Below are positions 8,995 to 46,758 of a DNA stretch of 64,000 nucleotides, in pieces. The DNA is taken from assembly GCA_001804285.1 (NCBI GenBank), contig MHFR01000060.1:34442-98441 (forward strand), in the 5' to 3' direction. The notes under the pieces are model-generated. The model was not told the origin of the DNA. It saw only the letters and a program-made list of their open reading frames with translations, and did not search any database. Made by a program: the position numbers and the translations under genes. Every line of letters begins with the position of its first letter. Within the stretch, counting starts at the first letter, position 1. Source of the DNA: Candidatus Danuiimicrobium aquiferis. GTDB taxonomy: Bacteria; Omnitrophota; Omnitrophia; Omnitrophales; Danuiimicrobiaceae.

Positions 8995-9069
8995 TGGAGG
9001 CGCGGGGCGGAATCGAACCGCCGTATACAGGTTTTGCAGACCCGTGCATTACCACTTTGCTACCGCGCC
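8995..9069 (-). tRNA. tRNA-Cys (anticodon GCA), CCA encoded
   Basis: Reverse complement: GGCGCGGTAGCAAAGTGGTAATGCACGGGTCTGCAAAACCTGTATACGGCGGTTCGATTCCGCCCCGCGCCTCCA. Cloverleaf with anticodon loop CTGCAAA. Confidence 0.9.
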
Positions 9070-26115: not shown

Positions 26116-26119
26116 TTTG

Positions 26120-27379: not shown

Positions 27380-27491
27380 TTGAATGGCTTCGCTATTTTA
27401 AAGCTGATTAAAAAAAGGGACGGTTCTAAAAACGAAGTGCCCGCAATCATCCGCACCGACTAACTTAGAACCCTCCTCTTAATATTTGAAA

Positions 27492-27806
27492 TCAAAATCC
27501 CAATTTCTTCTTCATGTCCTTGCCTGCTTTTCCAGCTTCCTTCTGTATCCTTTTTGCTTCCTGCTCGGCATAGCGCTTCACCCGATCGGCCTTGCGCTGG
27601 GCCAGAATTTGGTCTTTTTCAAGGCCTTTCTTCCCCATGGTCGCAAATGAATCGACTATCTTATCAAGAACGTTCTCTTGATATTCAGCAGCGTAGCAAA
27701 CGTTCATTGGCAGACTTGAAAACATCAATGACATTACAAAAAACAACGTTGCTAAACGTTTCATTCTATACCTCCTTTTTTCTAATAACATCACTGCCAT
27801 TGGCAA
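27492..27806 (-). CDS. Small secreted K/E-rich protein (probable start at 'MKRLATLFFVMSLMF', ~27764)
   Basis: Signal peptide followed by a charged helical region. No domain recognised. Confidence 0.45.
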   Translation of the reverse strand: MPMAVMLLEKRRYRMKRLATLFFVMSLMFSSLPMNVCYAAEYQENVLDKIVDSFATMGKKGLEKDQILAQRKADRVKRYAEQEAKRIQKEAGKAGKDMKKKLGF

Positions 27807-28264
27807 ATTATAAGAGTGGGTAGTTAAAAATCAATCAATAAATAATCATGACCGGTCGGACAAATCGTAATTTTTATAAGCCTCTTGAGCGCAATCATGC
27901 CGATCGTCATTTATTAAAACTCCCCCCTGCCTTTATTAGCGGGTATCTACATCAAGGGTACCCATTTCAAAAATGCACTGCAATTTTGTTAGTACCTAAC
28001 GGACGGCGTGTGGTATGCGGTATGCAACAGGGCACGGGATTGCTAAAGGGCTAATAGTGGGTGCTTATTCCGCATTCTATTTTCGTATTTTGACTATATA
28101 ACTTAGGAGGTGCTAAGGCACGATCACCCCAGCCTGACACGTACAGTAACGCCTCCGATTATTTTGAAAAAAAAGTAATGGCAGTTGTAAAAGTTGATTT
28201 TTCGGTTGTATAATGAATTAATATCTGTTTCCCGCTAAAAAGCTCAATTGGAACTAATACTGTT

Positions 28265-29650
28265 ATGAATGTACGCAGAAATTGGTTAATCGCCGGACTG
28301 ATTATTGTTCTGGTTGTAATCACAGGCCTGATTTCCGTTCGAAGATCCCAACGCGGTTCGAACGATTTTGATACCTACTATAAAGCAGGCAGGGCGGTCA
28401 TTCAAGGCAGCGGAATCTATTATGTAACGGAAGGAAACAACGTTCCGCCAACCGAAGATCATGTCAGTCCCTTCCTCTATCCTCCGGTCGCAGCTTGTTT
28501 TTTTGCGGCCTTTGCTGTTCTTCCGCTTTCAATCGCGAGTTTTTGCTGGAACGCTTTGAACGTCTGTTTTTTTTTCTGGGCCTTGGTCTTGTCATGGCAG
28601 ATTATGCAGCCAAGGCCGCCAAACCTATTGACGGTATTTCAGCGCATTCCGAAATTCGATGCGGTTTTATTCGTCGGAATCGGCTTTTCGTGTTTAATCG
28701 ACAACTTGGCAATGGCCCAGGTAAATATTCTGGTTTTCCTTCTTACCGTCATATCCATTGATTTCTGGCGGAAAAAAAGGGAATTTTGGGGTGGCGTTAT
28801 TCTGTCATGCGCGATCTTAATCAAAGTTACGCCCGCTTTGTTTTGCCTTTACTTTTTGGTCAAGAGAAAACCTAAGTTTTTGGCAGGCACGCTGGCCGGT
28901 GGAATTGTTCTGACTTTATTGATTCCGACACTTATATTTGGGATGGAAGGAAACCGTATTTACCACCGCCAATGGATAGGCCGAAACGTCAAGCCGCTTC
29001 TGATTAATGTCATTCAATATTTTAAAAAGGAAGCGCCGCATCCGGACAAAAAGACACCGGAGCAAATCCGGATGATGCATTTAACCTCCAATTTGCTCAA
29101 GGTCAACCAATCACTGGAAGCTACGATCACAAGACTTTTTTTGAAGAACCGGAATCAGTACGGGCCCGAACGAGGTTATCCAACATATGTTGTCCGCCAC
29201 TACGAGAAATTGCCGGTCATCGGCGGAGGAGTTTCGCTTGAAACTCTTGAAACCGGAGTCCGTATTTTTGAATTGTGTTTGCTGATCGGACTGATGTTTC
29301 TTTTTTTGAGTGTCAAGGCACCGGCTCAGGCAGGGGAATACCTTTACCCGCTGGAATTCTCTTTGATTTATCTGACGATGACATTGATTTCTCCAATCAC
29401 TAGGAGTCAACATATGGTGGTTTGGCTATTTCCAATTTTGGCCGCCATTTGGATGAATCACTGCGTGCCCGAACTTATCCGAGTCCGAAGTGTTATGCTT
29501 TTACGCACCGCACGTACTGCCTGTGTCATCTACTTTTTACAGGGATTACCTTACGGCCAGGCCATCGGAATGGGGACGTGGGCGAATCTAATACTGTGGT
29601 GCGGAATTACCACCGCCTTGCTACAGTTGAATAAAACCCCGCAAAATTAG
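28265..29650 (+). CDS. Polytopic membrane glycosyltransferase, GT87/DUF2029-like (GT-C fold)
   Basis: 461 aa, about 11 TM segments. N-proximal 'NDFDTYYKAGRAV...SPFLYPPVAACFFAAFAVLPL' resembles the DUF2029 signature. Confidence 0.5.
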   Translation: MNVRRNWLIAGLIIVLVVITGLISVRRSQRGSNDFDTYYKAGRAVIQGSGIYYVTEGNNVPPTEDHVSPFLYPPVAACFFAAFAVLPLSIASFCWNALNVCFFFWALVLSWQIMQPRPPNLLTVFQRIPKFDAVLFVGIGFSCLIDNLAMAQVNILVFLLTVISIDFWRKKREFWGGVILSCAILIKVTPALFCLYFLVKRKPKFLAGTLAGGIVLTLLIPTLIFGMEGNRIYHRQWIGRNVKPLLINVIQYFKKEAPHPDKKTPEQIRMMHLTSNLLKVNQSLEATITRLFLKNRNQYGPERGYPTYVVRHYEKLPVIGGGVSLETLETGVRIFELCLLIGLMFLFLSVKAPAQAGEYLYPLEFSLIYLTMTLISPITRSQHMVVWLFPILAAIWMNHCVPELIRVRSVMLLRTARTACVIYFLQGLPYGQAIGMGTWANLILWCGITTALLQLNKTPQN

Positions 29651-33161: not shown

Positions 33162-33367
33162 AAAAAGGTTAGATGCAGTTTAATATTAAACTAAATTTTG
33201 GGCTCTCCGGTACAAACTGTTACCCATGTGTCCGGTACGGACCATTTGGGTAGTCTCGGGGCGGCCATGACTCTCATTTAAATATATTTTCTTTTATTCA
33301 TCGGAAGTCATGACTGTCCATAGGCTTTCATTGGAAAACAATATTAAACTATTTATTAAGGTAGTTT

Positions 33368-33440
33368 CGGGGCGGTAGGATTTGAACCTACGACCTCACG
33401 GTCCCGAACCGTGCGCGATACCAAACTTCGCTACGCCCCG
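33368..33440 (-). tRNA. tRNA-Pro (anticodon CGG), no encoded CCA; acceptor stem extended by 8 bp of complementary 5'/3' flank
   Basis: Reverse complement: GGGGCGTAGCGAAGTTTGGTATCGCGCACGGTTCGGGACCGTGAGGTCGTAGGTTCAAATCCTACCGCCCCGA. Anticodon loop TTCGGGA. Confidence 0.9.
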
Positions 33441-33699: not shown

Positions 33700-35070
33700 T
33701 TAGATCTTGAAATAATCGATGATCCACGCCGCATCCTTTGAAGAGGCCCGGTTCCAGCTCTCGATCAATTGATCCGCCGGCGATTTCCCCGGACCGGTAA
33801 TTTCTTCTTTAAGCGGTCCGAGATAAATACTCTCATCGCGGCCCTTTTCATTCACCATGGCCATCCGTTTGAGTCCGGCTTCACTCATTGCAACAAGCTC
33901 ACGCGCATAATCGAGTACACAGTTCTTCTCCATTTTTGCGCGCAAGCCCTCCTTCTCGATCGATTCACGAAGTTGAACAAACGTTTCCCGGCAAAACGGC
34001 TTCAATAATTTTTCAGCATCCTTCATTGCCCGATCATCATAAAGAATTCCTTTCCAGAATGCCGCCACGGAAGGAATCAATTGACACCGCTGGCCGTCCA
34101 TGCCGCGCACTTCAACATAATGTTTAAACCGCGCGTCCGTAAAAATCGTGCTCAAATGAAGATCAAAATCTTCACGCGTCGGATAAATCCCCTCATAACC
34201 GTTTTCAATAAAGTGACGAAACGTCAAATTCTTCACGGGTAACCAGTCATCACTGCGGACCACAAACATGACCGGCACATCCAAAACATAATTTAAATAA
34301 TCATCAAACGTACATTTTTGGCAGACAAGATCGAGCACGAGGCCAGTACGATCGGGATCCGTATGACGCCAAATATAAAGGCGTTCCGATTGAAAACCGG
34401 ATAACTTCCCGCTGGAAAAAGCGCTGTTCGAAAACATAGCGGCGGCAAACGGAGTCACTGCCAGAATGAGCCGCATTTTTTCGATGGCGTCCTGTTCGTC
34501 CCGGTAATCGAGATTGACCTGATCCGTGGCGGTTCGTTTCATCATGTCATGCGCACGGGCACCTTTTTGGATGAGGTAATCCGCCATGATTCGGTAGCGT
34601 TTTTTCGGAACCCATTCGATAGATTCAAGCCCGGAAAACGGATGAATCCCGCAGGCAAGCCACGAAATTTTTCCCAAAATTTGTGCAGCTATTTTTAATT
34701 GAAAGAAAAAATCATTCAACTGCGACTTCGCTTCATGGATGCTTCGAACAGGTTCACCGCTTAGTTCAATCTGTCCGCCGGGCTCGAGCGTAATCATTGT
34801 ATGCCCTTTTTGCAGGGCAATCGTGCGATCCCCTTCTTGAATGGGTGTGTAGCCGAATTCCCGGGAAAGCACCCGCAGCACCGCTTCCACGCCCCGCTTT
34901 CCGGAATAAGGCAGTGCTTCCGCCGTTTCAGAATGAACACCGAAAATTTCACATTCAATACCGATTTTTTCCGCTCCCGCAGGCTTTCCAAATTCCTGAA
35001 AATAGCCTCGCAAATCCTCTACCGAATGAATGGGGATCGCTCGAGAATTGGTGTGTAAAAAAGTACTCAT
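33700..35070 (-). CDS. gshA: Glutamate--cysteine ligase (gamma-glutamylcysteine synthetase, plant/proteobacterial GCS2 type); start taken at 'MSTFLHTNS'
   Basis: About 457 aa. 'IGIECEIFGV', 'LEPGGQIELSG' motifs of the GCL family. Divergently paired with gshB. Confidence 0.65.
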   Translation of the reverse strand: MSTFLHTNSRAIPIHSVEDLRGYFQEFGKPAGAEKIGIECEIFGVHSETAEALPYSGKRGVEAVLRVLSREFGYTPIQEGDRTIALQKGHTMITLEPGGQIELSGEPVRSIHEAKSQLNDFFFQLKIAAQILGKISWLACGIHPFSGLESIEWVPKKRYRIMADYLIQKGARAHDMMKRTATDQVNLDYRDEQDAIEKMRLILAVTPFAAAMFSNSAFSSGKLSGFQSERLYIWRHTDPDRTGLVLDLVCQKCTFDDYLNYVLDVPVMFVVRSDDWLPVKNLTFRHFIENGYEGIYPTREDFDLHLSTIFTDARFKHYVEVRGMDGQRCQLIPSVAAFWKGILYDDRAMKDAEKLLKPFCRETFVQLRESIEKEGLRAKMEKNCVLDYARELVAMSEAGLKRMAMVNEKGRDESIYLGPLKEEITGPGKSPADQLIESWNRASSKDAAWIIDYFKI

Positions 35071-35113
35071 CTCAGCATGCCTTTTTCTTAAATTTGCCTT
35101 ATAATACTGCCTT

Positions 35114-36106
35114 ATGATAGCCCAAGGACAAAGGAAAGACAACCCGAAACAGCCGGTAAAAGCACTCTCCATAGGGTTCGTCATGGATCCGATGGAACAT
35201 ATTGATATTCAATATGATAGTTCGGTTTCGCTGATGATGGAGGCTGAAAAACGCGGCCACCGGATCTATTATTTCGAACCTCGGGATATTTACACTCAGA
35301 ATCATGAACTTCTGGGATGCGCGCGAAAAATTTCAATTCCGGCCCGAAAAACGGGCTTCCGGGTCCTTTCCACAGAACGGGTTTATCTAAAAAATTTGGA
35401 TGTTCTGTTCATTCGAAAAGATCCTCCGTTCGACTTATCTTACCTGTATCTCATGCAAATCCTGACCCTCATTGAAAAAGACGTTTTTGTCATTAATTCC
35501 GCACACGGAATCGAGCGGGCCAATGAAAAACTTTATATCCTTGAATTTCCCCGGTGGATTCCACCGACCACCGTCACCAATGATCCTTTGCGGATCGAAG
35601 AATTTCAAAAAAAAATAAAGTCCGATATCATTATAAAACCGCTTGATCAAAAAGGAGGTGCAGGAATTAAACTCCTTCCGTTCCGTTTGTCGAACAGCCG
35701 CCAAGCTTTGAACCGAATGACCCGGCACGGAACAAAATGGGTCATGGTTCAAAAATTCATTAAGGCGAGCCGCACAAAAGGCGATAAACGAATTTTACTT
35801 TTAAACGGAAATGTACTCGGGCAATTCCGCAGAATTCCGGTCCGTGGTGAATTCCGCGCTAATTTATCCCTGGGAGGAATGGAAGCGAAAGCAACTTTAA
35901 CCAACCGCGAACGGAAAATGGTTCGCGCAATTCGGCCCAAGCTGATTCGAGACGGGCTTTATTTCGTGGGGATTGATATTGTTGACGGTTATTTAATTGA
36001 AATTAATGTGACCAGTCCGGCCGGGCTTACCGTGCTTGAGGCACTCGACGGAAAGCGGCTTGAGCCGAAAGTGATTGATTTTGCTGAATCCCGGGTTTTG
36101 CATTAG
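35114..36106 (+). CDS. gshB: Glutathione synthetase (prokaryotic ATP-grasp type)
   Basis: Aligns along the E. coli GshB sequence: 'SIGFVMDPMEHIDIQYDSSVSLMMEAEKRGH', 'RKDPPFD', 'IIKPLDQKGGAGI', 'GDKRILLLNG', 'EINVTSP'. The stop TAG lies inside repeat B2. Confidence 0.85.
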   Translation: MIAQGQRKDNPKQPVKALSIGFVMDPMEHIDIQYDSSVSLMMEAEKRGHRIYYFEPRDIYTQNHELLGCARKISIPARKTGFRVLSTERVYLKNLDVLFIRKDPPFDLSYLYLMQILTLIEKDVFVINSAHGIERANEKLYILEFPRWIPPTTVTNDPLRIEEFQKKIKSDIIIKPLDQKGGAGIKLLPFRLSNSRQALNRMTRHGTKWVMVQKFIKASRTKGDKRILLLNGNVLGQFRRIPVRGEFRANLSLGGMEAKATLTNRERKMVRAIRPKLIRDGLYFVGIDIVDGYLIEINVTSPAGLTVLEALDGKRLEPKVIDFAESRVLH

Positions 36107-36308
36107 CCCGGATTTCGCATCTTTAATAAGAAATTCCGCTCATAAGAGCTGCGGTGCAAAGATGGTTTGTATCTTTGCGACGCAGGGCTTATCTTTTGCG
36201 CCCTTGTTAAATCAGGGCGCAAAACTTTGGGCCACCTGATTGCGCCCAAAGCGACTTTCTCGTCGATTCACGAAATCGATGAGAAAGTCGGGTTAGCCCG
36301 GATTTCTC
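36104..36308. repeat. Family B MITE-like element, full copy B2 (about 205 bp; five consecutive hairpin modules; termini TAGCCCGGATTTC...GAGAAAGTCGGGTTA)
   Basis: Sits between convergent gshB and ftsI. It provides the gshB stop codon, and the last ~13 codons plus stop of ftsI ('GEIRANPTFSSIS*'). Confidence 0.85.
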
Positions 36309-38028
36309 CGGTTCCCGCCGCGGCTTCGCCTTCCTTCACCGCAGGCGGCACATATCCTAAATACCATAAACTGCGTTCAATCACCGATTTGAAAACCGGC
36401 GCAGCCACGGTTCCACCGTAATAAAGCGGATGGGGATCATCAATTCCCACAAACATGGCAAGCTGGGGATCTTCCACCGGCGCAAATCCGATAAAACTGC
36501 CGATAAAATGCGAATGCGAATAAGTTCCATTCGGCTCAAGCTTCTGAGAAGTCCCTGTTTTTCCGCCGGCACGGATATCAGTCATATATGCACCTTTTCC
36601 GGTTCCCTCGCTCACCACTCGTTCCAAAATCCCTTTGACCGTTTCAGCCACAGCCGGCGAAACGATCGGACCCCGGAGTTCCGGCTCCCGATGTGACAAT
36701 ACGACGCCTTTTGAATCCTTGATTTCTTTCAATAAGTAGGGTTTCACCAAATATCCGCCATTTGCAATCACGCTCACCGCGCGCACCATTTGAAGCGCAG
36801 TTGCAGCGACTTCCTGGCCATATGGAATAGACGTAATCGAAAATTTTGACCATCTATCCAACGGCCGGAAAATGCCGACCACTTCTCCGGGAAAATCAAT
36901 ACCTGTTTTATCGCCAAAACCGAATTTCTTGACATACTCGTAAAGTTTTTTATCTCCAAGTTTCATTGCAATTTTAACCGTCCCGATATTGCTTGATTTA
37001 ATGAGAACCATCGGCACGTCTAAAATTCCGTAAGGATGCACATCATGAATCGTTCGGTTAGGACGGGCACGCCAAAACCCTTGTTCGCAATTAAATGTGT
37101 CTGTTAACTGAATCGCTTTTTCCTGAAGCGCACCCGTCACCGTTACAATTTTAAAAACAGAACCCGGCTCAAAGATATCCGTCACGGGCCGGTTGCGGCG
37201 GCTTGCCGTATCGGATTTCCCGCGAAAATTCGGATCGAATGTCGGCCGCGATGCCATGGCAAGAATCTCACCCGTCTTCGGGTTCATCACGACTGCAATC
37301 GCAGCTTTCGCTTTCCATTGTAAAAACGCCTCATTCAAAGCCTGCTCTGTGTAAAATTGAATATGCTTATCAATGGTCAGAATCAAATCAGCGCCATCAA
37401 CCGCCGGAATTAATTTTTGCTCCATTGAAACGATTTCCCGGCCAAGCGCATCCCGTTTCGTATAGCGATATCCCGTCCTTCCGGATAGTTCGCGTTCATA
37501 AAGCATTTCGAGGCCGTCCACTCCTTTGTTATCAATATCACAGAAACCGAGGATATTCGAAAGCATCTCACTATGAGGATAAAACCGTTTACTTTCGTAA
37601 GCCACTCCGAGCACCGGATTCTCCAAACTCATGATTTCTTCTGCTTCTTTCACAGCCGTTCTGCGTTTAAGCCATACAAATGATTTATCGCGCAAAAGCC
37701 GGTCCGATAAATATTTCTGATCGAGCCCGAGAATCCGGCTGAGAATGGCTGCCAATTTTTTTATGTTGGATTTTGAAATCAACCTGGGCACGGCATAAAT
37801 AGAGGGGGATCTCAAGTTGGTAGCAAGCACTTGCATGCGATGATCATAAATAACGCCACGCTCTGGAGGAATTTCAATCACAAGATTGTGCTGTCGTTCG
37901 GCAAAATCAGTCAACATTTCCTGATTCCGAACCGTCAACCGGAAAAGCTGGTAAAAAATCAGAAGGAATAGAATCACAACGGAAATATACAACAGTAAAA
38001 TGCGTCTTTTAAAACTTTTCGCGAGCAT
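36268..38028 (-). CDS. ftsI: Peptidoglycan D,D-transpeptidase FtsI / PBP3-class penicillin-binding protein
   Basis: N-terminal TM, PBP dimerisation domain, transpeptidase motifs ('SVFK' SxxK, 'SSN', 'KTGT'). Located after ftsL in the dcw cluster. Confidence 0.85.
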   Translation of the reverse strand: MLAKSFKRRILLLYISVVILFLLIFYQLFRLTVRNQEMLTDFAERQHNLVIEIPPERGVIYDHRMQVLATNLRSPSIYAVPRLISKSNIKKLAAILSRILGLDQKYLSDRLLRDKSFVWLKRRTAVKEAEEIMSLENPVLGVAYESKRFYPHSEMLSNILGFCDIDNKGVDGLEMLYERELSGRTGYRYTKRDALGREIVSMEQKLIPAVDGADLILTIDKHIQFYTEQALNEAFLQWKAKAAIAVVMNPKTGEILAMASRPTFDPNFRGKSDTASRRNRPVTDIFEPGSVFKIVTVTGALQEKAIQLTDTFNCEQGFWRARPNRTIHDVHPYGILDVPMVLIKSSNIGTVKIAMKLGDKKLYEYVKKFGFGDKTGIDFPGEVVGIFRPLDRWSKFSITSIPYGQEVAATALQMVRAVSVIANGGYLVKPYLLKEIKDSKGVVLSHREPELRGPIVSPAVAETVKGILERVVSEGTGKGAYMTDIRAGGKTGTSQKLEPNGTYSHSHFIGSFIGFAPVEDPQLAMFVGIDDPHPLYYGGTVAAPVFKSVIERSLWYLGYVPPAVKEGEAAAGTGEIRANPTFSSIS

Positions 38029-39385: not shown

Positions 39386-39733
39386 TTAAGCGTGCTTAAA
39401 ACTCTGCACACCTTCCTCCTCGTTTGAATACGTCTCAATCATGTCATCGATCCCCAAGTAATGCAGCATTTCCTGAACTTTCGGCTGCAAATTAACCAAC
39501 CGAATGTCGCCCCTGAGAGACCGGACTTTTTGAATCCGCTCAACGAGAATGCTGATCCCTGCAACGTCAATCCAACGCGCGCGCTTAAGATCTAAAAGAA
39601 AATAGCGATGATTTTGATTCACCAACCGGCTTAACCGATTTTTAAGATGAACCATCTGCGTAGCGTTGAGATTTCCTCCGCAACGGACAACATCCACCGG
39701 ATTTTTTCCGTTTCCGTTCAATCGATACCCCAT
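39386..39733 (-). CDS. STAS-domain protein (anti-sigma-factor antagonist, SpoIIAA-like)
   Basis: 115 aa. 'YFLLDLKRARWIDVAGISILVERIQKVRSLRGDIRLVNLQPKVQEMLHYLGID' STAS fold pattern. Confidence 0.65.
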   Translation of the reverse strand: MGYRLNGNGKNPVDVVRCGGNLNATQMVHLKNRLSRLVNQNHRYFLLDLKRARWIDVAGISILVERIQKVRSLRGDIRLVNLQPKVQEMLHYLGIDDMIETYSNEEEGVQSFKHA

Positions 39734-40622: not shown

Positions 40623-41324
40623 TTATTCGCAGTATAAAATGCGGGAGCAATTTTCGCAGAAAACGACTTTTTCCTTCATTTTGATTTCATTGATGATTTG
40701 CGGACGGATTGTCATTTGGCATTCATTACAAACTTCACCTGTCACTTCAACAAGCGCAACTCCTCTTTTCTTCACAACAATTCTATCGTAGACAGAAGCA
40801 ATTTCCGGATCAACCTGCTTGATTTTTTCATTTCGCTGTTTTGTAAGGACTTCGCTTTGACCTTCAATTGCTTTGGCCTTTTCTTCAAACGTTTTAACCT
40901 TTTGATGTTGCTCAATTTCTGTTGTCTGAAATTTCTTTTTTTGTTCCTCTAATTTTTTCTGAACAGCCTGAACGTCATCCATAAATTGGATAATTTGTTC
41001 TTCGAGCAAGGAATTATCGGCCTTTAAGGAAGCAATTTCATCCTGCAGCGACTTATATTCTTTATTGGTCTTTACCTGGCTGAGTTGCGCATCATATTTC
41101 CTGACATTTTCTTCTTTGCCGGCAAGTTCAACTTCTTTCCCTTTTTGTTTAAGCTGAAGCTTTTTCAACTCATCCTGAAGATTCGTCAAAACATTTTTCT
41201 GTTCAACAATAAAACAGTTAATTGCTTCGATTTGCTCGGGAATAGTATTCTTTTCTTCTTCAAGCGTATAGATCTGCTTATCCCATTCCTGGATTTCTTT
41301 TAAGATTTTCATATCTGGCATCAT
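40623..41324 (-). CDS. Coiled-coil protein with C-terminal C4 zinc-ribbon (COG1579 / zf-RING_7 family)
   Basis: Long heptad-rich N-terminus. C-terminus 'CNECQMTIRPQ...VFCENCSRILY' is a CxxC...CxxC ribbon. Confidence 0.65.
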   Translation of the reverse strand: MMPDMKILKEIQEWDKQIYTLEEEKNTIPEQIEAINCFIVEQKNVLTNLQDELKKLQLKQKGKEVELAGKEENVRKYDAQLSQVKTNKEYKSLQDEIASLKADNSLLEEQIIQFMDDVQAVQKKLEEQKKKFQTTEIEQHQKVKTFEEKAKAIEGQSEVLTKQRNEKIKQVDPEIASVYDRIVVKKRGVALVEVTGEVCNECQMTIRPQIINEIKMKEKVVFCENCSRILYCE

Positions 41325-41432: not shown

Positions 41433-42038
41433 TTATACAGCCTTCTCAATTTTGGATTCATTTAAAATTGCCCGCCGCTTGCGAAGTTCCATCCCCAAGC
41501 GGGCAAAAGCAATCAGCTCAGGAGTTGAAAGATCCGATTCCCGGATACCGGATTCTGTTTTGGAATTAATCGGCCGCGGATAAAGGGCGGCTGAAAAGCC
41601 CGCATTTGCTTCCCTCTCTTCTTTCACTCGTCGAATGAAAACCGCATTTTCACCTTCTGAGCGAATAAAAGAAAACTCGTGAAGGCTCACCCTGATTAAA
41701 CCAAATGACATCCGGGATAATAAATGAGAGGAAAATCCGTTCGCAAAAACACATAATGCAATATCTTGGATATTCGCATCATTCAATTCTTTGCGTTTCC
41801 CTTCCAATCGTGCCGCACTATTTAAAAACCATTCGAAGGACTCTTCCTCTAACTCTTGCGAATGAATCTGTATTTCCACCAAAGTATGCTCCACCAAAAT
41901 AAACTGGCAAATCGCTCGCTCTCCCTTGGGATGAGAAAGGAATCGTGCAGCCGGAAACATCTTCTGAATGATGGCCGGAAGAATATTAACCAGTGATTCA
42001 CGCGACAATTCGTCGTAAACGGGTTCGTAAATTTTCAT
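41433..42038 (-). CDS. Hypothetical protein (last gene of the ParA-CBM48 operon)
   Basis: 201 aa, no recognisable motif. 4-nt overlap with the upstream gene. Confidence 0.45.
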   Translation of the reverse strand: MKIYEPVYDELSRESLVNILPAIIQKMFPAARFLSHPKGERAICQFILVEHTLVEIQIHSQELEEESFEWFLNSAARLEGKRKELNDANIQDIALCVFANGFSSHLLSRMSFGLIRVSLHEFSFIRSEGENAVFIRRVKEEREANAGFSAALYPRPINSKTESGIRESDLSTPELIAFARLGMELRKRRAILNESKIEKAV

Positions 42039-42904
42039 GAAATTAAATGCAGCTCCTCACACAGTTCAATTTTGGCTGATGAATTTAATATCATAGATTC
42101 CGGCTGCATCAGAATTTCAGGATTCAAGCGATACCGGTCATCTTCTCCCCAACCCATCAGATTTAAATCACAGCCAATGTATTGTGATACAATTTGGCAA
42201 AATTGTTCATAAACAAACTCGCACAAAGATTCGGCACCGGCCCCTTTTACCACCATCATAAAACGCAAGTTTTTTTTATGCGAAGCATGTAATCGCATCG
42301 CCTGATAAGCTTTAAGGACTCCCTCTAGATTAGGCGGAACAACCAAGATAATACAATCTAAAACATCGAGGATTTCCATTCCGAACCGGCAATCAGCCAA
42401 TGTTAAATAAGAAGAGTCAAACAAAACCAGATTAGACTGCGTAAGAGATCCGTTCAAACCCCTCTTAATTGGTTTTAAATCGATGATATCACCAAATTTG
42501 ACGGCAGGAATATAGGTAAACTTCACCGACCGGTCAAGTTGTTGAAATTGAACTAAATCATCCGAAACGATTTGTTCCCATCTGGGCAGCGGCAAAAAGG
42601 AAGCAAATATTTCATACCGTTCGTGGTTCGGAGCAACGGAAACAAAATACGTTTCCTGAAAAGATGTGCTGATCGATTCGAGCAACTTCATTTCCTCCAG
42701 AATCGTTAATTCTTCTTCCACAGATAAGAGAGTCGCGCAAACAACACCCCTGTGAATTTCTGCATCATGATAGACTTCGTTGTGGTGCTCAAATTCATGA
42801 GGAGGCGCAATCGACACAATCCGATTCGCATACCCTTTCCCAGGCATCTCAAAAAGCGGCGATAAATCAGCAAGTCCCTGTTTCAGCTTCTTTTCAACCT
42901 TCAT
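42035..42904 (-). CDS. MinD/ParA-like protein lacking a Walker A motif (degenerate pseudo-ATPase partner); start taken at 'MKVEKKLKQG'
   Basis: The C-terminal half 'DCIILVVPPNLEGVLKAYQAMRLHASHKKNLRFMMVVKGAGAESL...LMGWGEDD' follows the MinD/FlhG fold pattern. No GKGGxGK[ST] P-loop. Confidence 0.5.
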   Translation of the reverse strand: MKVEKKLKQGLADLSPLFEMPGKGYANRIVSIAPPHEFEHHNEVYHDAEIHRGVVCATLLSVEEELTILEEMKLLESISTSFQETYFVSVAPNHERYEIFASFLPLPRWEQIVSDDLVQFQQLDRSVKFTYIPAVKFGDIIDLKPIKRGLNGSLTQSNLVLFDSSYLTLADCRFGMEILDVLDCIILVVPPNLEGVLKAYQAMRLHASHKKNLRFMMVVKGAGAESLCEFVYEQFCQIVSQYIGCDLNLMGWGEDDRYRLNPEILMQPESMILNSSAKIELCEELHLIS

Positions 42905-44198
42905 GTAAGTTACTTTCAATCTCCACCATAATAAGCGAATCAACCCCACCATACTGATTCGCGCTGTTGTACCCGTTGGCAGGATCTGTTTTCCATTCGT
43001 CATCAACCAAAAGTTTATACCTGTGCAACCCTTTGCCGATCGGAATGATTTTCCGCCACAATCCTTTCTCCGCATCTACAAGGTGGAGCGGTTCTGCTAC
43101 CCATCGGTTGAAATCCCCCGCAATCATGACGGAGCGAACTGCCTGATTTAAATAAGAGAATAAAAAACCACCTAAAACGGCGCGCGGTTTTAATTCTTCG
43201 GGATCCATCGCGGGCACTTGAATTTGTTCTATTTGAATAGTGGCAATCGTCGACGCGGGATGAGTCTCAACCGCGGCTTGCGTTTGAACCGTAGGGGACT
43301 GAGTAGAATCGATATGAATGGCCTCTTGTTTATCGTTTCCCGAAGTCACAGAATTTTCCGTTTCGTCTTGATGGCTCTTTCCATCAGAAACGCTTGCCCC
43401 ATCCACCTTTGGCGAAACTTTCGAACCGCCACTTGCCCAAATTAATCCGCGTTCGATCACTTCGATAGCCAGCCCCATGTAATTTCGGAAACCACTCGAT
43501 TCCCGGTCAAAAGCAACAATACTTTGCCCGGCCGCAGCAGCTTCTTTTAATCTGATATTTTCATCAATGATATTAATAAAGATCTGATCGTGAAAATATT
43601 TCCGAACTTCTTCTTTGATTTCCCGTCCGAGCCGGCTCCGGTCTTCCCATCGGGTTAAGAGCGCATGAATCCTGAGTTCTTTGCCAAATTCTTTTTTAAA
43701 CGAATCAATGGTTTCAAAAATTTTTGCAAGTCCATGAAGTGAAAAAAAGGACGGTTCAATCGGAATAATCACCTCTTCAGCGGCATAAAGCGCATTGAAT
43801 GTCAAAAATCCAAGATTTGGCGGGCAATCAATAATAACATATTCGTACCGGTCTGAAATGGCGTCCAACTGGCGTGCCAAGCAACTGTGCGGAACAGTTT
43901 CGCAAACAAATTCACGTTCAACACGGCCTAACTTGATCGTTGAGGGAATCATATCCAAGTGATCATTAACAAAAACACCTAAGTCAGCAGCGCTGATTTC
44001 CTGGCTCTGGAAGAGATCATACGACGTATAAGGAAGAAATTCGGCTTTAATGCCAAGCCCGCAGGCACAATGTCCTTGAGGATCTAAATCCATTAACAAA
44101 ACTTTTTTACGAAGGAAAGCTAAGCTTGCGGATAAATTGATAGCGGTAGTCGTTTTTCCACAACCCCCTTTTTGATTTGCAATTGCAACAATTCGCAC
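42894..44198 (-). CDS. ParA/Soj-family deviant Walker-A ATPase fused to a C-terminal AMPK-beta / CBM48-like glycogen-binding domain
   Basis: N-terminus 'IVAIANQKGGCGKTTTAINLSASLA...DLDPQGH...IIDCPPNLG' is a canonical ParA. After a low-complexity linker, the C-terminus 'VLGGF..S.L...VRSVMIAGDFNRWVAEPLHLVDAEKGLWRKIIPIGKGLHRYKLLVDDEWKTDPAN' aligns to the AMPK beta-subunit GBD (SGSFNNW...HQYKFFVDGQWTHDP). Confidence 0.7.
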   Translation of the reverse strand: MRIVAIANQKGGCGKTTTAINLSASLAFLRKKVLLMDLDPQGHCACGLGIKAEFLPYTSYDLFQSQEISAADLGVFVNDHLDMIPSTIKLGRVEREFVCETVPHSCLARQLDAISDRYEYVIIDCPPNLGFLTFNALYAAEEVIIPIEPSFFSLHGLAKIFETIDSFKKEFGKELRIHALLTRWEDRSRLGREIKEEVRKYFHDQIFINIIDENIRLKEAAAAGQSIVAFDRESSGFRNYMGLAIEVIERGLIWASGGSKVSPKVDGASVSDGKSHQDETENSVTSGNDKQEAIHIDSTQSPTVQTQAAVETHPASTIATIQIEQIQVPAMDPEELKPRAVLGGFLFSYLNQAVRSVMIAGDFNRWVAEPLHLVDAEKGLWRKIIPIGKGLHRYKLLVDDEWKTDPANGYNSANQYGGVDSLIMVEIESNLHEG

Positions 44199-44468
44199 GG
44201 GGTTTTAACCTCCCCTTTTCGTTTTACGCGAACGTTCTTACACGCAATCAATTCTATGGCTTGAATTCTGTGGACGCTATCGTTCGGAATTTAACAAAAG
44301 AACTATAGCTCAATCACAAAAGTTGTAAAAAATATATTTTTTTATGAATAATGACAAAAAAATCACTTCATTCTCAGGAAAATCCCTTTCCAAAAAAGAA
44401 ATTCTATAGATAGACCTTTGAATCTTATATCGGCAATCGGGGAACAATCTTAAGCTGTTGCATGCTTT

Positions 44469-44581: not shown

Positions 44582-45538
44582 TTACACGCGCACTAAATTC
44601 TCAACATTCGCTACCCCAACCACCTCGCGGGAAGGGTTAATCACAATAGCGTAAGATGCGTGTTTCGATTGCAGGAGATAGAGTGCTTTTTCGGAAGACG
44701 TGTCATGCCGGATAAAAAGCGGGGCTCGTAGATATTGGGAGAGAGGAAGATCTCCGTCACTTTCGAACAAAATATCAAAAACATAAATAATGCCCACCAC
44801 AATTGATGGAATTTCTTCGTAAACTAAAATGGCTTTTGTTTTCCGATCCTTTGCAATCTTTTTGACCTCTTTAATCTTGCAAGTAAGCGGAACTTGAGGA
44901 AAACGCGAGAGTGGAATCATGACTTCTTCCACACGATTTGACCGCAGATTTAAAATAGTATCAATCATTTTCTGCTCGTGCTGGTGAAGCACACCCTGTT
45001 TTGCGCTTTCTTTCACGACATATGAAAACTCCTCGCGAGTTACAAAAGGATTCGGTTTAAACGCTGAACCCGTAAATCCAATTAATTGATCGATGATTTT
45101 AATAAATACGACTGAAATCCAGCCCAAGAGGCGATCAATCACTGTCATTAACGGCGCTAAACGATAAATGAAGTCATCGGCACGTTGGCGGAACCAATCT
45201 TTCGGAACGGTTTCCGCAAAAATGATGATAAATGGCGCAATAATAGCCACGATAACCCACTCATTTGTGATATGCATCTTTTCGCCCAATAAATAAGTCG
45301 CAAGAGACGTCATCGAAACATGGGTCAAATTATTTCCGATCAGAACAGTTGTCAAAAAACGCTTCGGCTCACGGTGAAATGCCATCGCCAATATGCCATT
45401 TTTATTTCCCTCATCGGCCAAATGGCGAAGTTTGAGCTTATTGCAAGACAAATAAGCCATTTCCATTCCGGCGAAAATAACCGAAAGCGCAAAGCTCAGT
45501 CCGATTAAAAATAAAATAATGATCATGGTTTCTGCCAA
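44582..45538 (-). CDS. CNNM/DUF21-CBS pair domain membrane protein (CorC/HlyC-family transporter, lacks C-terminal CorC domain)
   Basis: DUF21 4-TM N-terminus plus tandem CBS domains. Paralog of the upstream gene. Confidence 0.7.
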   Translation of the reverse strand: MAETMIIILFLIGLSFALSVIFAGMEMAYLSCNKLKLRHLADEGNKNGILAMAFHREPKRFLTTVLIGNNLTHVSMTSLATYLLGEKMHITNEWVIVAIIAPFIIIFAETVPKDWFRQRADDFIYRLAPLMTVIDRLLGWISVVFIKIIDQLIGFTGSAFKPNPFVTREEFSYVVKESAKQGVLHQHEQKMIDTILNLRSNRVEEVMIPLSRFPQVPLTCKIKEVKKIAKDRKTKAILVYEEIPSIVVGIIYVFDILFESDGDLPLSQYLRAPLFIRHDTSSEKALYLLQSKHASYAIVINPSREVVGVANVENLVRV

Positions 45539-46758
45539 ATTTCAATTTTTTTGATTCTTTGTCGATGAACTTCTCTGACATAAAATTCATTTGCATCGTC
45601 TGAAAATAATTCACCCGTTTTAGGAATTCGTCCAAGCTTTTCAAGAAGCCAACCGCCTAATGTTTCACTGGTCTCGGAGGTTAAATGCAAACCCAATTTT
45701 TCTTCCAGCTCATGGAGTCCAGCTTTCCCCAGAACCATATACCGGCCAACACCTGTTTCCCGGATCATCGGCTCCTCCTTAGAATATTCATCGTAAAACT
45801 CTCCAAAAATTTCTTCTAAAACATCTTCAAGAGTGACGATCCCGGCCGTTCCGCCATATTCATCCACACAAATCGCGCAACGATATTGCTGTTTTTGTAA
45901 TTCTAAAAGCAATTCGTCAACCGGTTTCGTCTCCGGAACATAAAATGGAGTCATTATATGTTCTTGGACCTTTTTCGTTTCATCAAGCATAAATTCTTGC
46001 GACCAAATTACTCCCAACAAATGATCCAGCGATTTCTCGTAGACAGGGATATAACTGTAATGGCTCTGTTTGATCAATTCCGCAAGACTTTCCGGAGAGT
46101 CTTCAACATCAAAAGCGATTAAATCGGGCCGCGGCGTCATGATCTCGCGAACAATGCGGTCGCTCAAACTGATCAATTTATGGATCATTCCGCTTTCCTC
46201 ATCCTTGAGGACCCCTTCTTCCTCACCGATTCGAACCAAAGCTTTGAGCTCATCTTCAGAAATCATGTCCGGATGCAATCTTTTCCCTTTAACTAAAATC
46301 CGCAGGATAAAATCAGAAATCAAACGGATGAGTTTTCGTATGGGAAATAAAATACGTGCAATCAAATCGAGAGGAATACATGTGATTGTCGCGGTCCAAA
46401 CATTTTGCTGAACTGCAAAGACTTTCGGGGTCAACTCACCAAACAACACCAAGACAACCGTAAACCCGGCGATGGTCCAACCAACCCCTCCAAATCCAAA
46501 TAGTTTTATTGAAATCAATGTCACAATCGCCACCATCAAGGTATTCACAGCCATATTTCCTATCAAAATGGTGATCAACGTTCGGCGCGGACTTTCGAGC
46601 AGCCGTTCAACGATTTTCCAGATTAACGGATGTCCGCTTTGCAAACGGCGCTTCTCAATTTTAGAAAGAGAAAAAATAGCCGCTTCTGATCCCGAAAAAA
46701 ACGCGGACATCAATAAAAGTAATATAAGAAGCGCGAAATGAGACATTAATGTCGGCAT
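45523..46758 (-). CDS. CNNM/CorC-family Mg2+/Co2+ transporter (DUF21-CBS-CorC_HlyC)
   Basis: 'FFSGSEAAIFSLS' DUF21 start. CBS pair. C-terminal transporter-associated domain. Confidence 0.75.
   Translation of the reverse strand: MPTLMSHFALLILLLLMSAFFSGSEAAIFSLSKIEKRRLQSGHPLIWKIVERLLESPRRTLITILIGNMAVNTLMVAIVTLISIKLFGFGGVGWTIAGFTVVLVLFGELTPKVFAVQQNVWTATITCIPLDLIARILFPIRKLIRLISDFILRILVKGKRLHPDMISEDELKALVRIGEEEGVLKDEESGMIHKLISLSDRIVREIMTPRPDLIAFDVEDSPESLAELIKQSHYSYIPVYEKSLDHLLGVIWSQEFMLDETKKVQEHIMTPFYVPETKPVDELLLELQKQQYRCAICVDEYGGTAGIVTLEDVLEEIFGEFYDEYSKEEPMIRETGVGRYMVLGKAGLHELEEKLGLHLTSETSETLGGWLLEKLGRIPKTGELFSDDANEFYVREVHRQRIKKIEIWQKP

What the first reader, a model, noticed from the sequence alone, without database searches (positions are those of the whole stretch)
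42035..44198. ParA/Soj ATPase fused to an AMPK-beta/CBM48-type glycogen-binding domain, heading a four-gene operon
The 434-aa protein has a complete deviant Walker-A ParA module (KGGCGKTT, DLDPQ, IIDCPPNLG). After a ~100-aa low-complexity linker it carries a C-terminal ~90-aa domain that aligns motif-for-motif with the eukaryotic AMPK beta-subunit glycogen-binding domain (GDFNRW ... HRYKLLVDDEWKTDP). ParA/MinD ATPases position cargo such as plasmids, carboxysomes, chemoreceptor arrays and flagella through a cargo-binding adaptor. Here a polysaccharide-binding module is built into the ATPase itself. I am not aware of a characterised ParA of this architecture. It suggests a self-contained system that positions or segregates glycogen/polyglucan granules, or another glucan-decorated structure. 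The gene is followed by a Walker-A-less MinD paralog and a hypothetical protein with overlapping start/stop codons, and then by a coiled-coil zinc-ribbon protein. Together these form a compact candidate machine.
Basis: partly seen in the sequence, partly recalled or inferred. Interest (0 to 1): 0.85.

Follow-up and report, generated by a model that had tools for sequence, protein, structure and literature searches.

The report
ParA ATPase with built-in glycogen-binding domain
The gene is real: it encodes a Soj-type ParA positioning ATPase joined to an AMPK-beta-type glycogen-binding domain. It is conserved across Omnitrophota and some other phyla together with a catalytically dead MinD/FlhG-like partner, and it probably ties glycogen stores to the nucleoid, although that function is untested.

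Summary
ORF 42894-44198(-) encodes 434 aa in three parts:
- a Soj-like ParA with Walker A KGGCGKTT (Foldseek TM 0.9 to Soj);
- a disordered linker of about 70-80 aa;
- a C-terminal beta-sandwich that matches the AMPK beta1/beta2 carbohydrate-binding module. Support: Pfam PF16561 E=2.6e-9; profile vs PDB E=2.5e-12; Foldseek TM 0.8, rmsd 1.2-1.4 Å. The sugar-contacting Trp/Lys/Trp positions are conserved.

The fusion is not an artefact. It occurs in more than 110 protein clusters. It also occurs in all 76 of the 80 best genome loci that hold the whole gene; these are mostly Omnitrophota, with some labelled Nitrospirota, Planctomycetia and Deltaproteobacteria. None was found on plasmids or in viral contigs.

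New here:
- The downstream gene is an FlhG/FleN-family protein without a P-loop.
- Its N-terminus (KKLKRGLxDLSPLF) resembles the ParB/Spo0J peptide that activates ParA.
- The same peptide heads an unrelated HTH protein behind ParA-CBM in the deltaproteobacterial loci. It therefore looks like a portable partner tag.

The conserved core is ParA-CBM, this partner, and probably the 201-aa protein. The zinc-ribbon gene and the mraZ/dcw neighbourhood are specific to Omnitrophota.

Glycogen-granule positioning is the best reading (about 0.45) but is untested. I found no publication on it. I class it as a new variant of a known kind.

The parts
42894..44198 (-). ParA-CBM gene (434 aa, GTG start)
   Evidence: ORF. 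It is 100% identical to P0001 from Omnitrophica bacterium RIFCSPLOWO2_12_FULL_44_17. Domains.
43431..44198 (-). Soj-type ParA ATPase domain (residues 1-256)
   Evidence: AAA_31 E=3.6e-50. phmmer vs PDB: 8ray ParA 3.5e-53, T. thermophilus Soj 1.5e-42, H. pylori Soj 1e-39. Foldseek target TM 0.89-0.94. K10, K15, D37, D39 and D124 are invariant in 88 homologues.
44145..44177 (-). Deviant Walker A, NQKGGCGKTTT (residues 8-18), with a family-specific Cys
   Evidence: Cys13 is invariant in 88/88 sequences. It is also present in the Nitrospirota-, Planctomycetia- and Delta-labelled copies.
43191..43430 (-). Low-complexity disordered linker (residues about 257-336)
   Evidence: pLDDT below 50 for residues 266-324. 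Composition is rich in S, Q, T, V, A and E. Family linker lengths fall into two classes, 14 aa and 45-139 aa.
42924..43190 (-). AMPK-beta-type CBM48 carbohydrate-binding domain (residues about 337-425)
   Evidence: PF16561 E=2.6e-9. Profile vs PDB 1z0n E=2.5e-12. AF2 pLDDT 95.6 and Foldseek TM about 0.8 to AMPK beta CBMs. W366, K395 and W402 align with AMPK beta1 W100, K126 and W133, and D420 aligns with N150.
44302..44329 (-). Sigma-70-like promoter candidate upstream of ParA-CBM (TTTACA-16-TATAGT)
   Evidence: This is a consensus match only; the number of such sites in the region is not above shuffled expectation.
44209..44217 (-). Shine-Dalgarno AAGGGGAGG, 10 nt before the GTG start
   Evidence: Read directly.
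42035..42904 (-). P2: FlhG/FleN/MinD-family pseudo-ATPase partner (289 aa from ATG 42904), 11-nt overlap with ParA-CBM
   Evidence: Family profile vs PDB: FlhG 4rz2 E=1.1e-15, FleN 5j1j 2.7e-10. The window protein alone hits only FlhG, at E=0.03. No P-loop at the Walker A position. Found directly downstream of ParA-CBM in 77 loci. Omnitrophota vs Nitrospirota-type P2: hhalign probability 96.9%.
42851..42895 (-). P2 N-terminal basic tag peptide (residues 4-18, EKKLKQGLADLSPLF)
   Evidence: It is conserved across P2 (L7, R9, G10, L11, S15, F18). A motif regex matches 61/77 P2 and otherwise only the HTH protein downstream of ParA-CBM in L079/L082, out of 4453 ORFs. It resembles the Spo0J N-terminus MSRKPSGLGRGLEALLPK, verified in PDB 1vz0.
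41433..42038 (-). P3: 201-aa protein of unknown fold, 4-nt ATGA overlap with P2
   Evidence: No Pfam, NCBIfam or PDB match. Conserved downstream of P2 in 65 loci. It has a conserved C-terminal L[ST]xxE motif, shared with the 188-aa ORF that follows P2 in Nitrospirota-type loci. hhalign between the two is only weak, P=0.0016.
40623..41324 (-). P4: CT398/CdsZ-like coiled-coil hairpin plus C4 zinc ribbon (233 aa). An Omnitrophota-specific neighbour, probably not part of the core.
   Evidence: CT398_CC E=6.6e-13 and Zn_ribbon_9 E=2.9e-11. NCBIfam CdsZ scores 92 bits, below the 275 cut-off. There is a 108-nt gap with a TATAAT box. Absent from the non-Omnitrophota loci.

Best explanation
This is a chromosomally encoded ParA/MinD-type positioning module. 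Its ATPase recognises a storage polysaccharide directly.

Shown:
- The ATPase is a Soj-like ParA with intact catalytic residues.
- It is joined by a flexible linker to a CBM48/AMPK-beta-type domain that keeps the alpha-glucan-contacting residues.
- It is always followed, with translational coupling, by P2. P2 is an FlhG/FleN-like protein that has lost its P-loop and carries a conserved basic N-terminal peptide resembling the ParB/Spo0J peptide that stimulates Soj.

Inferred:
- The ATP-bound ParA-CBM dimer binds the nucleoid non-specifically through the conserved Soj-type Arg/Lys residues.
- As a dimer it presents two CBMs, which hold glycogen granules by avidity.
- The P2 tag peptide triggers ATP hydrolysis, which returns the dimer to monomers and releases the granule.
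- Repeated cycles would tether and distribute glycogen granules over the nucleoid so that the very small daughter cells inherit them. This is analogous to McdA/McdB for carboxysomes.

The roles of the dead ATPase body of P2 and of P3 are unknown. They may form a scaffold on the granule or act as a heterodimeric cap on ParA-CBM.
For: - Architecture and folds.
- Catalytic residues invariant in 88 homologues: K10, K15, D37, D39, D124.
- The equivalent of B. subtilis Soj R189 is Arg in 77/88 sequences, and position 218 is K/R in 88/88. The role of R189 in DNA binding is from my own knowledge (Hester & Lutkenhaus 2007).
- CBM positions aligned to AMPK beta1 W100/K126/W133 are W/K/W, invariant or above 90%. 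N150 aligns to D or N, and L146 to Y/F. Their role in sugar contact is from my own knowledge (Polekhina 2005; PDB 1z0m/1z0n).
- The fusion is conserved in more than 110 of the 120 best protein clusters. It is present in all 76 of the 80 best GTDB loci whose ORF is long enough to include the N-terminus; the other four are cut by a contig end. 73 of the 76 match the strict Walker A pattern KGGxGK[ST].
- P2 sits directly downstream in 77 loci, including Nitrospirota-type loci where the rest of the neighbourhood differs.
- The tag peptide is specific to the ORF downstream of ParA-CBM on two unrelated scaffolds. It resembles the Spo0J N-terminus.
- Partner proteins of ParA/MinD ATPases generally act through a positively charged N-terminus (PMC10241942).
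- Many Omnitrophota MAGs encode glycogen synthesis (PMC8542988).
- The gene family was not found on plasmids or in viral contigs, so it is not a mobile-element partition system.
- In Delta-type loci, a nearby 104-aa protein combines a very basic tail with the same CBM type. This is McdB-like logic.
Against: - No binding, localisation or ATPase data exist.
- No glycogen-metabolism gene lies in the window or next to the module. The one exception is a GDE_N gene 8 kb away in L003.
- Co-occurrence with glg genes could not be tested.
- A CBM carried constitutively on the ATPase does not fit the usual Brownian-ratchet logic, where the cargo carries the activator and not the ATPase.
- In Omnitrophota the module is invariably next to mraZ/dcw, which may point to cell division instead.
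- In Delta-type loci the partner is an HTH protein, which suggests a DNA cargo.
- Some Omnitrophota are reported to have trehalose synthesis but not glycogen synthesis. Whether those lineages carry the gene is unknown.
Confidence: 0.45

Rival explanations
1. Glycogen sensing rather than glycogen transport. As in AMPK, the CBM would report carbon-store status. Glucan binding would modulate the dimerisation, DNA binding or turnover of a Soj-like ATPase whose real task is chromosome segregation or division-site placement. P2, P3 and the coiled-coil zinc-ribbon protein would be the positioned complex, in the manner of PomXYZ or MipZ.
For: - The module sits immediately upstream of mraZ-STAS-rsmH-ftsL-ftsI in essentially every Omnitrophota locus, even where the upstream synteny is broken (L004, L014, L019).
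- The ParA domain is as close to chromosomal Soj (41% to B. subtilis Soj) as it is to ParA-CBM proteins of other phyla (38-47%).
- The partner peptide is ParB-like.
- The short-linker class (14 aa) holds the CBM close to the ATPase body.
- P4 is a coiled-coil protein.
Against: - The dcw linkage is absent in the Nitrospirota-, Planctomycetia- and Delta-type loci.
- P4 has its own -10 box and is not part of the cross-phylum core.
- Long, variable, disordered linkers (45-139 aa) argue for a tether rather than an allosteric sensor.
- No ParB or centromere-binding protein lies in the Omnitrophota module.
Confidence: 0.25
2. The CBM48-like domain has been repurposed. It would bind a protein or a non-glucan ligand, and the module would position some other cargo, for example a protein assembly formed by P2 and P3.
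For: - In AMPK the same domain also makes protein contacts with the kinase domain (my own knowledge).
- CBM48-like domains are very widespread in prokaryotic proteins of unknown role: 14,905 clusters at 50% identity, many as tandem repeats.
- No glycogen genes are linked to the module.
Against: - The sugar-stacking Trp/Lys/Trp positions and the Asn/Asp position are among the most conserved columns of the domain. That is what purifying selection on the glucan site predicts.
- All the closest structural matches are glucan-binding CBMs: AMPK beta, then SEX4. By sequence profile, LSF1 and GlgB follow the AMPK beta CBMs.
Confidence: 0.2
3. A FleN-like transcriptional switch. P2 would act as an anti-activator of a sigma-54 enhancer-binding protein, ParA-CBM would sequester it, and the CT398-like protein would bind RpoN.
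For: - The closest solved relatives of P2 are FlhG and FleN.
- An NtrC-type sigma-54 activator and a histidine kinase lie directly upstream in Nitrospirota-type loci.
- CT398 and HP0958 are reported to bind RpoN (my own knowledge).
Against: - There is no sigma-54 promoter signal upstream of ParA-CBM above background.
- No enhancer-binding protein is found in the Omnitrophota loci.
- P2 lacks the ATP site that FleN needs for dimer-dependent FleQ binding.
Confidence: 0.05
4. The fusion is an assembly or frameshift artefact.
For: None found.
Against: The same single ORF is present in more than 110 independent protein clusters and in all 76 of the 80 best genome loci that hold the whole gene, from many studies and assemblers. 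It comes in two linker-length classes.
Confidence: 0.01

Closest known systems
Chromosomal Soj/ParA (T. thermophilus 1wcv/2bek, H. pylori 6iub/8jmj, B. subtilis Soj, ParA 8ray)
   Same: Short ParA with the deviant Walker A at residue 10. 34-41% identity and Foldseek target TM about 0.9. The Soj DNA-binding Arg position is conserved. The partner carries a Spo0J-like N-terminal peptide.
   Different: It has a C-terminal linker and CBM48 domain. There is no ParB (no ParB N-terminal domain or HTH) in the Omnitrophota and Nitrospirota modules. The Walker A has Cys instead of Val. It is not located in a gid/parAB origin-proximal context in the loci seen.
McdA/McdB carboxysome positioning, and other cargo-positioning ParA/MinD systems (PomXYZ, PpfA/TlpT, ParC/ParP)
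   Same: The logic is shared: a nucleoid-bound ParA-type ATPase plus a partner that acts through a basic N-terminal peptide and distributes a non-DNA cargo (PMC10241942). McdA is a structural hit (6non/6nop).
   Different: Here a cargo-recognition domain sits on the ATPase itself. The presumed cargo is a polysaccharide. The partner is a degenerate ParA/MinD-fold protein rather than a disordered or coiled-coil adaptor.
AMPK beta-subunit / Snf1-beta glycogen-binding domain (CBM48; PDB 1z0m, 1z0n, 2f15, 4yee, 4yef)
   Same: Same fold: TM about 0.8, rmsd 1.2-1.4 Å, 28% identity. The Trp/Lys/Trp sugar-contact positions are the same.
   Different: It is fused to a ParA ATPase instead of the alpha/gamma-binding C-terminal region of a kinase scaffold. 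N150 is mostly Asp and L146 is Tyr/Phe.
FlhG/FleN (MinD-like flagellar regulators; 4rz2, 5j1j). This comparison is for P2.
   Same: Closest solved relatives by profile, E=1.1e-15 and 2.7e-10. The similarity is collinear across the whole MinD fold.
   Different: The Walker A lysines are lost. There is no DQAxxLR/MinE-like activator helix; a ParB-like peptide is there instead. No signal for an amphipathic C-terminal helix. There are no flhF/flhA neighbours.
PhaM/PhaF tethering of PHB granules to the nucleoid (from my own knowledge)
   Same: The proposed outcome is the same: storage granules are attached to the nucleoid so that they are inherited equally.
   Different: PhaM and PhaF are passive DNA- and granule-binding proteins without an ATPase. 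There is no sequence relationship.

Membership tests
ParA/MinD (deviant Walker A, SIMIBI) ATPases | Deviant Walker A xKGGxxK[ST] with the signature lysine | tested here: met
   NQKGGCGKTTT. K10 and K15 are invariant in 88/88 sequences.
ParA/MinD (deviant Walker A, SIMIBI) ATPases | Walker A' and Walker B aspartates, and the ParA fold | tested here: met
   D37, D39 and D124 are invariant. Foldseek target TM 0.89-0.94 to Soj/ParA.
ParA/MinD (deviant Walker A, SIMIBI) ATPases | ATP-dependent dimerisation and partner-stimulated ATPase activity | not testable with these tools
   This needs biochemistry or multimer modelling.
ParA/MinD (deviant Walker A, SIMIBI) ATPases | A cognate partner with a basic N-terminal interaction peptide | tested here: met
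   The P2 N-terminus KKLKRGLxDLSPLF is conserved and specific to the ORF downstream of ParA-CBM. The function of the peptide is inferred.
Canonical chromosomal ParABS | An adjacent ParB (ParB N-terminal/CTPase domain plus HTH) and parS | tested here: not met
   P2, P3 and P4 have no ParB-type Pfam or NCBIfam hit. P2 is FlhG-like. parS was not searched for.
Canonical chromosomal ParABS | Non-specific DNA binding through the Soj R189-type arginine | tested here: inconclusive
   The equivalent R187 is Arg in 77/88 sequences, and K/R218 is basic in 88/88. Conservation alone does not show binding.
CBM48 / AMPK1_CBM (PF16561) | A profile match above the curated threshold | tested here: met
   37.6 bits against a cut-off of 26.8, E=2.6e-9. 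Family profile vs PDB AMPK beta1 gives E=2.5e-12.
CBM48 / AMPK1_CBM (PF16561) | The beta-sandwich fold of the AMPK beta CBM | tested here: met
   AF2 pLDDT 95.6. Foldseek TM about 0.8 and rmsd 1.2-1.4 Å, with the top 47 hits all AMPK or Snf1 beta.
CBM48 / AMPK1_CBM (PF16561) | Glucan-contact residues (AMPK beta1 W100, K126, W133, L146, N150) | tested here: met
   W366, K395 and W402 are conserved. L146 aligns to Y/F and N150 to D/N.
CBM48 / AMPK1_CBM (PF16561) | Actual binding of glycogen, amylose or cyclodextrin | not testable with these tools
   This needs pull-down or ITC.
FlhG/FleN/MinD (for P2) | Sequence and fold similarity to the MinD/FlhG core | tested here: met
   Profile A2 vs 4rz2 gives E=1.1e-15, and vs 5j1j gives 2.7e-10. 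4/20 members hit Pfam CbiA.
FlhG/FleN/MinD (for P2) | An intact deviant Walker A | tested here: not met
   The P-loop position reads, for example, SPDxEGDS or GGVNTQIG. No GK[ST] is found there in 75 sequences.
FlhG/FleN/MinD (for P2) | A C-terminal amphipathic membrane-targeting helix | tested here: not met
   The hydrophobic moment of the tails equals the shuffled control, 0.457 vs 0.462.
FlhG/FleN/MinD (for P2) | flhF/flagellar gene context | tested here: not met
   No flagellar genes are in any locus examined.
CT398/CdsZ/HP0958 zinc-ribbon proteins (for P4) | CT398-type coiled-coil hairpin plus C4 zinc ribbon | tested here: met
   PF24481 E=6.6e-13 and PF02591 E=2.9e-11.
CT398/CdsZ/HP0958 zinc-ribbon proteins (for P4) | Equivalog-level match to CdsZ | tested here: not met
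   NF047363 scores 92 bits, below the 275 cut-off.

The most novel reading that the evidence does not exclude
A prokaryotic counterpart of AMPK-style glycogen sensing wired into the cell cycle. ParA-CBM would read the state of the glycogen store and, with its ParB-peptide-bearing pseudo-ATPase partner, would gate nucleoid segregation or divisome placement in ultra-small Omnitrophota. That would explain why the module is fixed next to mraZ/dcw. A nearly as novel reading is the main one: the first ParA system whose cargo is a polysaccharide recognised directly by the ATPase.
Probability: 0.15. Interest if true: 0.85.

Novelty: new variant of a known kind. Interest (0 to 1): 0.7.

Why it matters
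ParA/MinD ATPases are the general bacterial solution for placing large cargos. The known cargos are DNA or protein assemblies, and they are recognised through an adaptor.

A family with a glucan-binding module on the ATPase itself would extend that list to storage polysaccharides. It is conserved in at least about 80 and probably several hundred species, spread over several phylum labels. How bacteria place and inherit glycogen granules is poorly understood, and this family would make the question directly testable.

The partner is also instructive. A ParB-like tag peptide sits on a dead MinD/FlhG fold, and in another lineage the same peptide sits on an HTH protein. This is a natural example of the portable 'luggage tag' idea that synthetic positioning systems aim for.

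All parts are small soluble proteins. They could be tested in E. coli, although the source organisms are uncultured.

Tried and rejected
1. A single-sequence database search with P2 found only P2 itself. The family evolves fast, so I recovered homologues by synteny from loci and by a profile search.
2. hhalign of P2 against the ParA domain of ParA-CBM was only suggestive: probability 25%, P=7.8e-4. The PDB profile search settled the fold.
3. The exhaustive CBM profile search was dominated by multi-repeat CBM proteins. It said nothing about the distribution of the ParA fusion.
4. P3 gave no Pfam, NCBIfam or PDB match. Its link to the Nitrospirota 188-aa ORF rests on position, size, a shared C-terminal motif and a weak hhalign score. 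No structure was predicted for it, because both prediction jobs went to ParA-CBM.
5. A scan for a sigma-54 promoter upstream of ParA-CBM gave nothing above background.
6. A test for an amphipathic membrane-targeting helix in P2 matched the shuffled control.
7. Short-peptide searches for the tag found nothing: against the PDB, against plasmids, and as 'LGRGL' in papers. I verified the Spo0J N-terminus through PDB 1vz0 instead.
8. Eight literature searches and look-ups in five papers found no description of a ParA-CBM48 protein.
9. Plasmid and viral collections contain no such fusion.
10. Extending the contig beyond the window found only a mobile/defence region on one side; the look-up failed on the other side.
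11. The afdb50 fold library was unavailable.
12. Pfam annotation of the rest of the window found only housekeeping genes and no glycogen genes.

Full report
**Observation**

The window comes from Omnitrophica bacterium RIFCSPLOWO2_12_FULL_44_17: the encoded protein is 100% identical to P0001. ORF 42894-44198(-) encodes 434 aa. It starts at GTG 44198, behind a strong Shine-Dalgarno sequence, AAGGGGAGG.

- Pfam gives AAA_31/CbiA/ParA-type hits for residues 1-250. It gives AMPK1_CBM (PF16561) for residues 353-426, E=2.6e-9 and 37.6 bits, above the curated 26.8 cut-off. CBM_48 itself is weak.
- Against PDB sequences, the C-terminal 105 aa hit AMPK beta1/beta2 CBMs first, E about 5e-6.
- A 29-sequence family profile raises this to E=2.5e-12. 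Pullulanase, LSF1, SEX4 and GlgB CBM48 domains follow.
- AlphaFold2 on an 88-sequence alignment gives a confident ParA domain (1-256), a disordered linker (266-324, pLDDT below 50) and a confident beta-sandwich (333-425). The CBM alone reaches pLDDT 95.6.
- Foldseek against the PDB places the ParA part with Soj/ParA, target TM 0.89-0.94.
- For the CBM, the first 47 Foldseek hits are AMPK-beta or Snf1-beta CBMs, at TM about 0.8 and rmsd 1.2-1.4 Å.

**Not an artefact, and widespread**

- Of the 120 best protein clusters, more than 110 carry both ParA-type domains and PF16561.
Of the best 80, the 76 whose ORF includes the N-terminus all pair a ParA domain with the C-terminal CBM. 73 of these match the strict Walker A pattern KGGxGK[ST]. 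The other four are cut by a contig end.
- Most records are Omnitrophota. Some are titled Nitrospirota/Nitrospiria, Planctomycetia, or Deltaproteobacteria/Syntrophobacterales. These titles are the submitters' own labels.
- Every copy examined, in every group, shares the unusual Walker A NQKGGCGKTTT, with Cys where Soj has Val. This argues for a single origin of the fusion.
- Linker lengths fall into two classes, 14 aa and 45-139 aa.
- Nothing similar was found on PLSDB plasmids or IMG/VR viral contigs. This is a chromosomal family, not a mobile-element partition gene.

**The ATPase**

- The closest solved relatives are chromosomal-type ParA/Soj: 8ray at 3.5e-53, T. thermophilus Soj at 1.5e-42 and H. 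pylori Soj at 1e-39.
- The signature lysine K10, K15, D37/D39 and D124 are invariant in 88 homologues.
- The position aligned with B. subtilis Soj R189 is Arg in 77/88 sequences. Position 218 is always Lys or Arg. That R189 mediates DNA binding is from my own knowledge (Hester and Lutkenhaus 2007).
- The protein therefore looks like an active ATPase that can bind the nucleoid. This is an inference.

**The CBM**

The HMMER alignment to PDB 1z0n, which covers rat AMPK beta1 residues 68-163, gives these correspondences:

| AMPK beta1 | This family | Conservation |
|---|---|---|
| W100 | W366 | invariant |
| K126 | K395 | at least 90% |
| W133 | W402 | at least 90% |
| L146 | Tyr/Phe | - |
| N150 | Asp or Asn | - |

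These are the residues that contact cyclodextrin in AMPK beta (my own knowledge, Polekhina 2005). Their conservation is the main argument that the domain still binds an alpha-glucan.

**The partner P2**

It overlaps the ParA-CBM stop by 11 nt.
- Pfam and NCBIfam find nothing in it. A single-sequence database search found only itself.
- I collected the gene downstream of ParA-CBM from 77 loci by iterated profile search.
- The family profile hits FlhG (4rz2, E=1.1e-15) and FleN (5j1j, E=2.7e-10). The window protein alone hits only FlhG, at E=0.03.
- Omnitrophota-type and Nitrospirota-type P2 are homologous over their full length: hhalign probability 96.9%, E=1.7e-10.
- The P-loop is gone in all of them.

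The part not seen before is the N-terminus.

- The peptide KKLKRGLxDLSPLF (KRLGRGLEEISHIFLSS in Nitrospirota-type proteins) is the best-conserved part of P2.
- It closely resembles the N-terminus of chromosomal ParB/Spo0J. I verified that sequence as MSRKPSGLGRGLEALLPK in PDB 1vz0.
- According to Leonard et al. 2005 (my own knowledge), that peptide stimulates the Soj ATPase through its arginine.
- A regular expression for the peptide, run over all 4453 ORFs of 84 loci, hits only 61 of the 77 P2 proteins and two other proteins. Those two are the 218-aa HTH_17 plus coiled-coil proteins that lie directly downstream of ParA-CBM in the two deltaproteobacterial loci.
- The same tag thus sits on two unrelated scaffolds, always behind ParA-CBM. 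This is strong comparative evidence that the peptide is the handle that interacts with ParA-CBM.
- It also fits the general rule that ParA/MinD partners act through a basic N-terminus (PMC10241942).

**The rest of the neighbourhood**

- P3 (41433-42038, 201 aa) overlaps P2 by ATGA. It is conserved behind P2 in 65 loci. It matches nothing known.
- Nitrospirota-type loci have a 188-aa ORF in the same place, with the same C-terminal L[ST]xxE motif. The profile-profile score between the two is only weak.
- P4 (40623-41324) is a CT398/CdsZ-like coiled-coil zinc-ribbon protein. It lies 108 nt downstream, behind a TATAAT box, and is absent outside Omnitrophota.
- In Omnitrophota the order ParA-CBM, P2, P3, P4, mraZ, STAS, rsmH, ftsL, ftsI is nearly invariant, even where the upstream genes differ.
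- In Nitrospirota-type loci the module follows a histidine kinase and an NtrC-type sigma-54 activator.
- In Planctomycetia-labelled loci it sits among RmuC, a membrane protein, a BFN-nuclease-domain protein and UvrD, with no P2.
- The cross-phylum core is therefore ParA-CBM plus a tag-bearing partner, and probably P3. It is not a four-gene machine.

**Mechanism**

The reading I consider most likely (about 0.45) is a nucleoid-based tether or distributor for glycogen granules.

1. The ATP-bound dimer binds DNA and presents two CBMs on flexible linkers. Both DNA binding and granule binding would then depend on the dimer state.
2. The P2 tag triggers ATP hydrolysis and release.
3. Repeated cycles spread granules along the nucleoid.

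Supporting context:
- Many Omnitrophota MAGs encode glycogen synthesis (PMC8542988).
- Delta-type loci also encode a small protein with a very basic tail and the same CBM type, which is McdB-like logic.

Points against:
- No glycogen genes are linked to the module.
- I could not test co-occurrence with glg genes.
- A CBM carried constitutively on the ATPase does not fit the classical ratchet.

Rivals:
- A glycogen-sensing Soj that acts in segregation or division (0.25). The dcw linkage and the ParB-like peptide favour it. The linkage is lost in other phyla, and the long floppy linkers argue against it.
- A repurposed CBM that binds something else (0.2). The conservation of the sugar-contact residues disfavours it.
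- A FleN-like sigma-54 switch (0.05). There is no sigma-54 promoter signal.
- An artefact, which is excluded.

**Novelty**

Eight full-text searches and look-ups in five papers found no description of this architecture. Public records call these proteins only 'AAA family ATPase', 'ParA family protein' or 'chromosome partitioning protein'.

The components belong to known families: ParA/Soj, CBM48, and the MinD/FlhG fold. The combination appears undescribed: a cargo-binding module on the ATPase, and a ParB-like tag on a dead MinD fold. I rate it a new variant of a known kind, with interest 0.7.

Noticed in passing
window 39386-39733 (-); also L001-L084: A STAS-domain gene (anti-sigma-antagonist type, 115 aa) sits between mraZ and rsmH. 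It is conserved there in essentially all Omnitrophota loci. This is an unusual insertion into the start of the dcw cluster.
   Followed up: partly
window 33700-38028: The dcw cluster stops after ftsI. It is followed by a convergent glutathione-synthetase/RimK-like gene (35114-36106, +) and a GCS2 glutamate-cysteine ligase gene (33700-35184, -). The same break is seen in L001-L003.
   Followed up: no
window 44145-44177 (-); L079, L080, L085: The Walker A of every ParA-CBM protein reads KGGCGKT, with an invariant Cys where Soj has Val. This is a possible family signature, or possibly a redox-sensitive site.
   Followed up: partly
L079 3552-3866 (+) and L082 3573-3866 (+): A stand-alone protein of about 100 aa lies 1.3 kb upstream of the deltaproteobacterial ParA-CBM. 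It has an extremely basic N-terminal tail (MKRKPRRVEMSKKKQKKKPEKRR) followed by the same CBM48-type domain. This has the layout expected of a cargo-marking partner for a ParA.
   Followed up: partly
L079 6233-6889 (+), L082 6233-6889 (+): An HTH_17 plus coiled-coil protein carries the same N-terminal tag peptide as P2 (KNQERGLAKVSHFFLSS). It lies directly downstream of ParA-CBM. It may link this ATPase to a DNA site in that lineage.
   Followed up: partly
window 44582-46758 (-): Two tandem CNNM/CBS (CorC/HlyC-type) membrane protein genes lie directly upstream of ParA-CBM. They are conserved in most Omnitrophota loci, along with obg-proB-proA-nadD.
   Followed up: no
window 81-1336 (-) and L088 11834-21581: An AbiEii toxin and HTH antitoxin pair lies at the window edge. 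Beyond the window, the related contig L088, which carries the identical MurJ protein, continues with DUF3800, a serine recombinase, a type I restriction HsdR and AbiEi. Together these form a mobile/defence island.
   Followed up: partly
window 25567-29650: This is the only block with genes on the + strand. It holds a 182-aa ORF without Pfam hits and a GT87 glycosyltransferase at 28265-29650, next to a 419-aa ORF without hits (26120-27379, -). It coincides with the one 2-kb bin of positive GC skew.
   Followed up: no
proteins P0122-P0271: CBM48/AMPK1_CBM-like domains related to this one are very common in prokaryotic proteins: 14,905 clusters at 50% identity with E<=1e-3. A large class is about 480 aa with four tandem copies, and giant proteins carry up to 18-19 copies. 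All are uncharacterised here.
   Followed up: no
window 23606-24114 (-), 8998-9069 (-), 33367-33440 (-): A bacterial class A RNase P RNA and two tRNA genes. These are ordinary.
   Followed up: no
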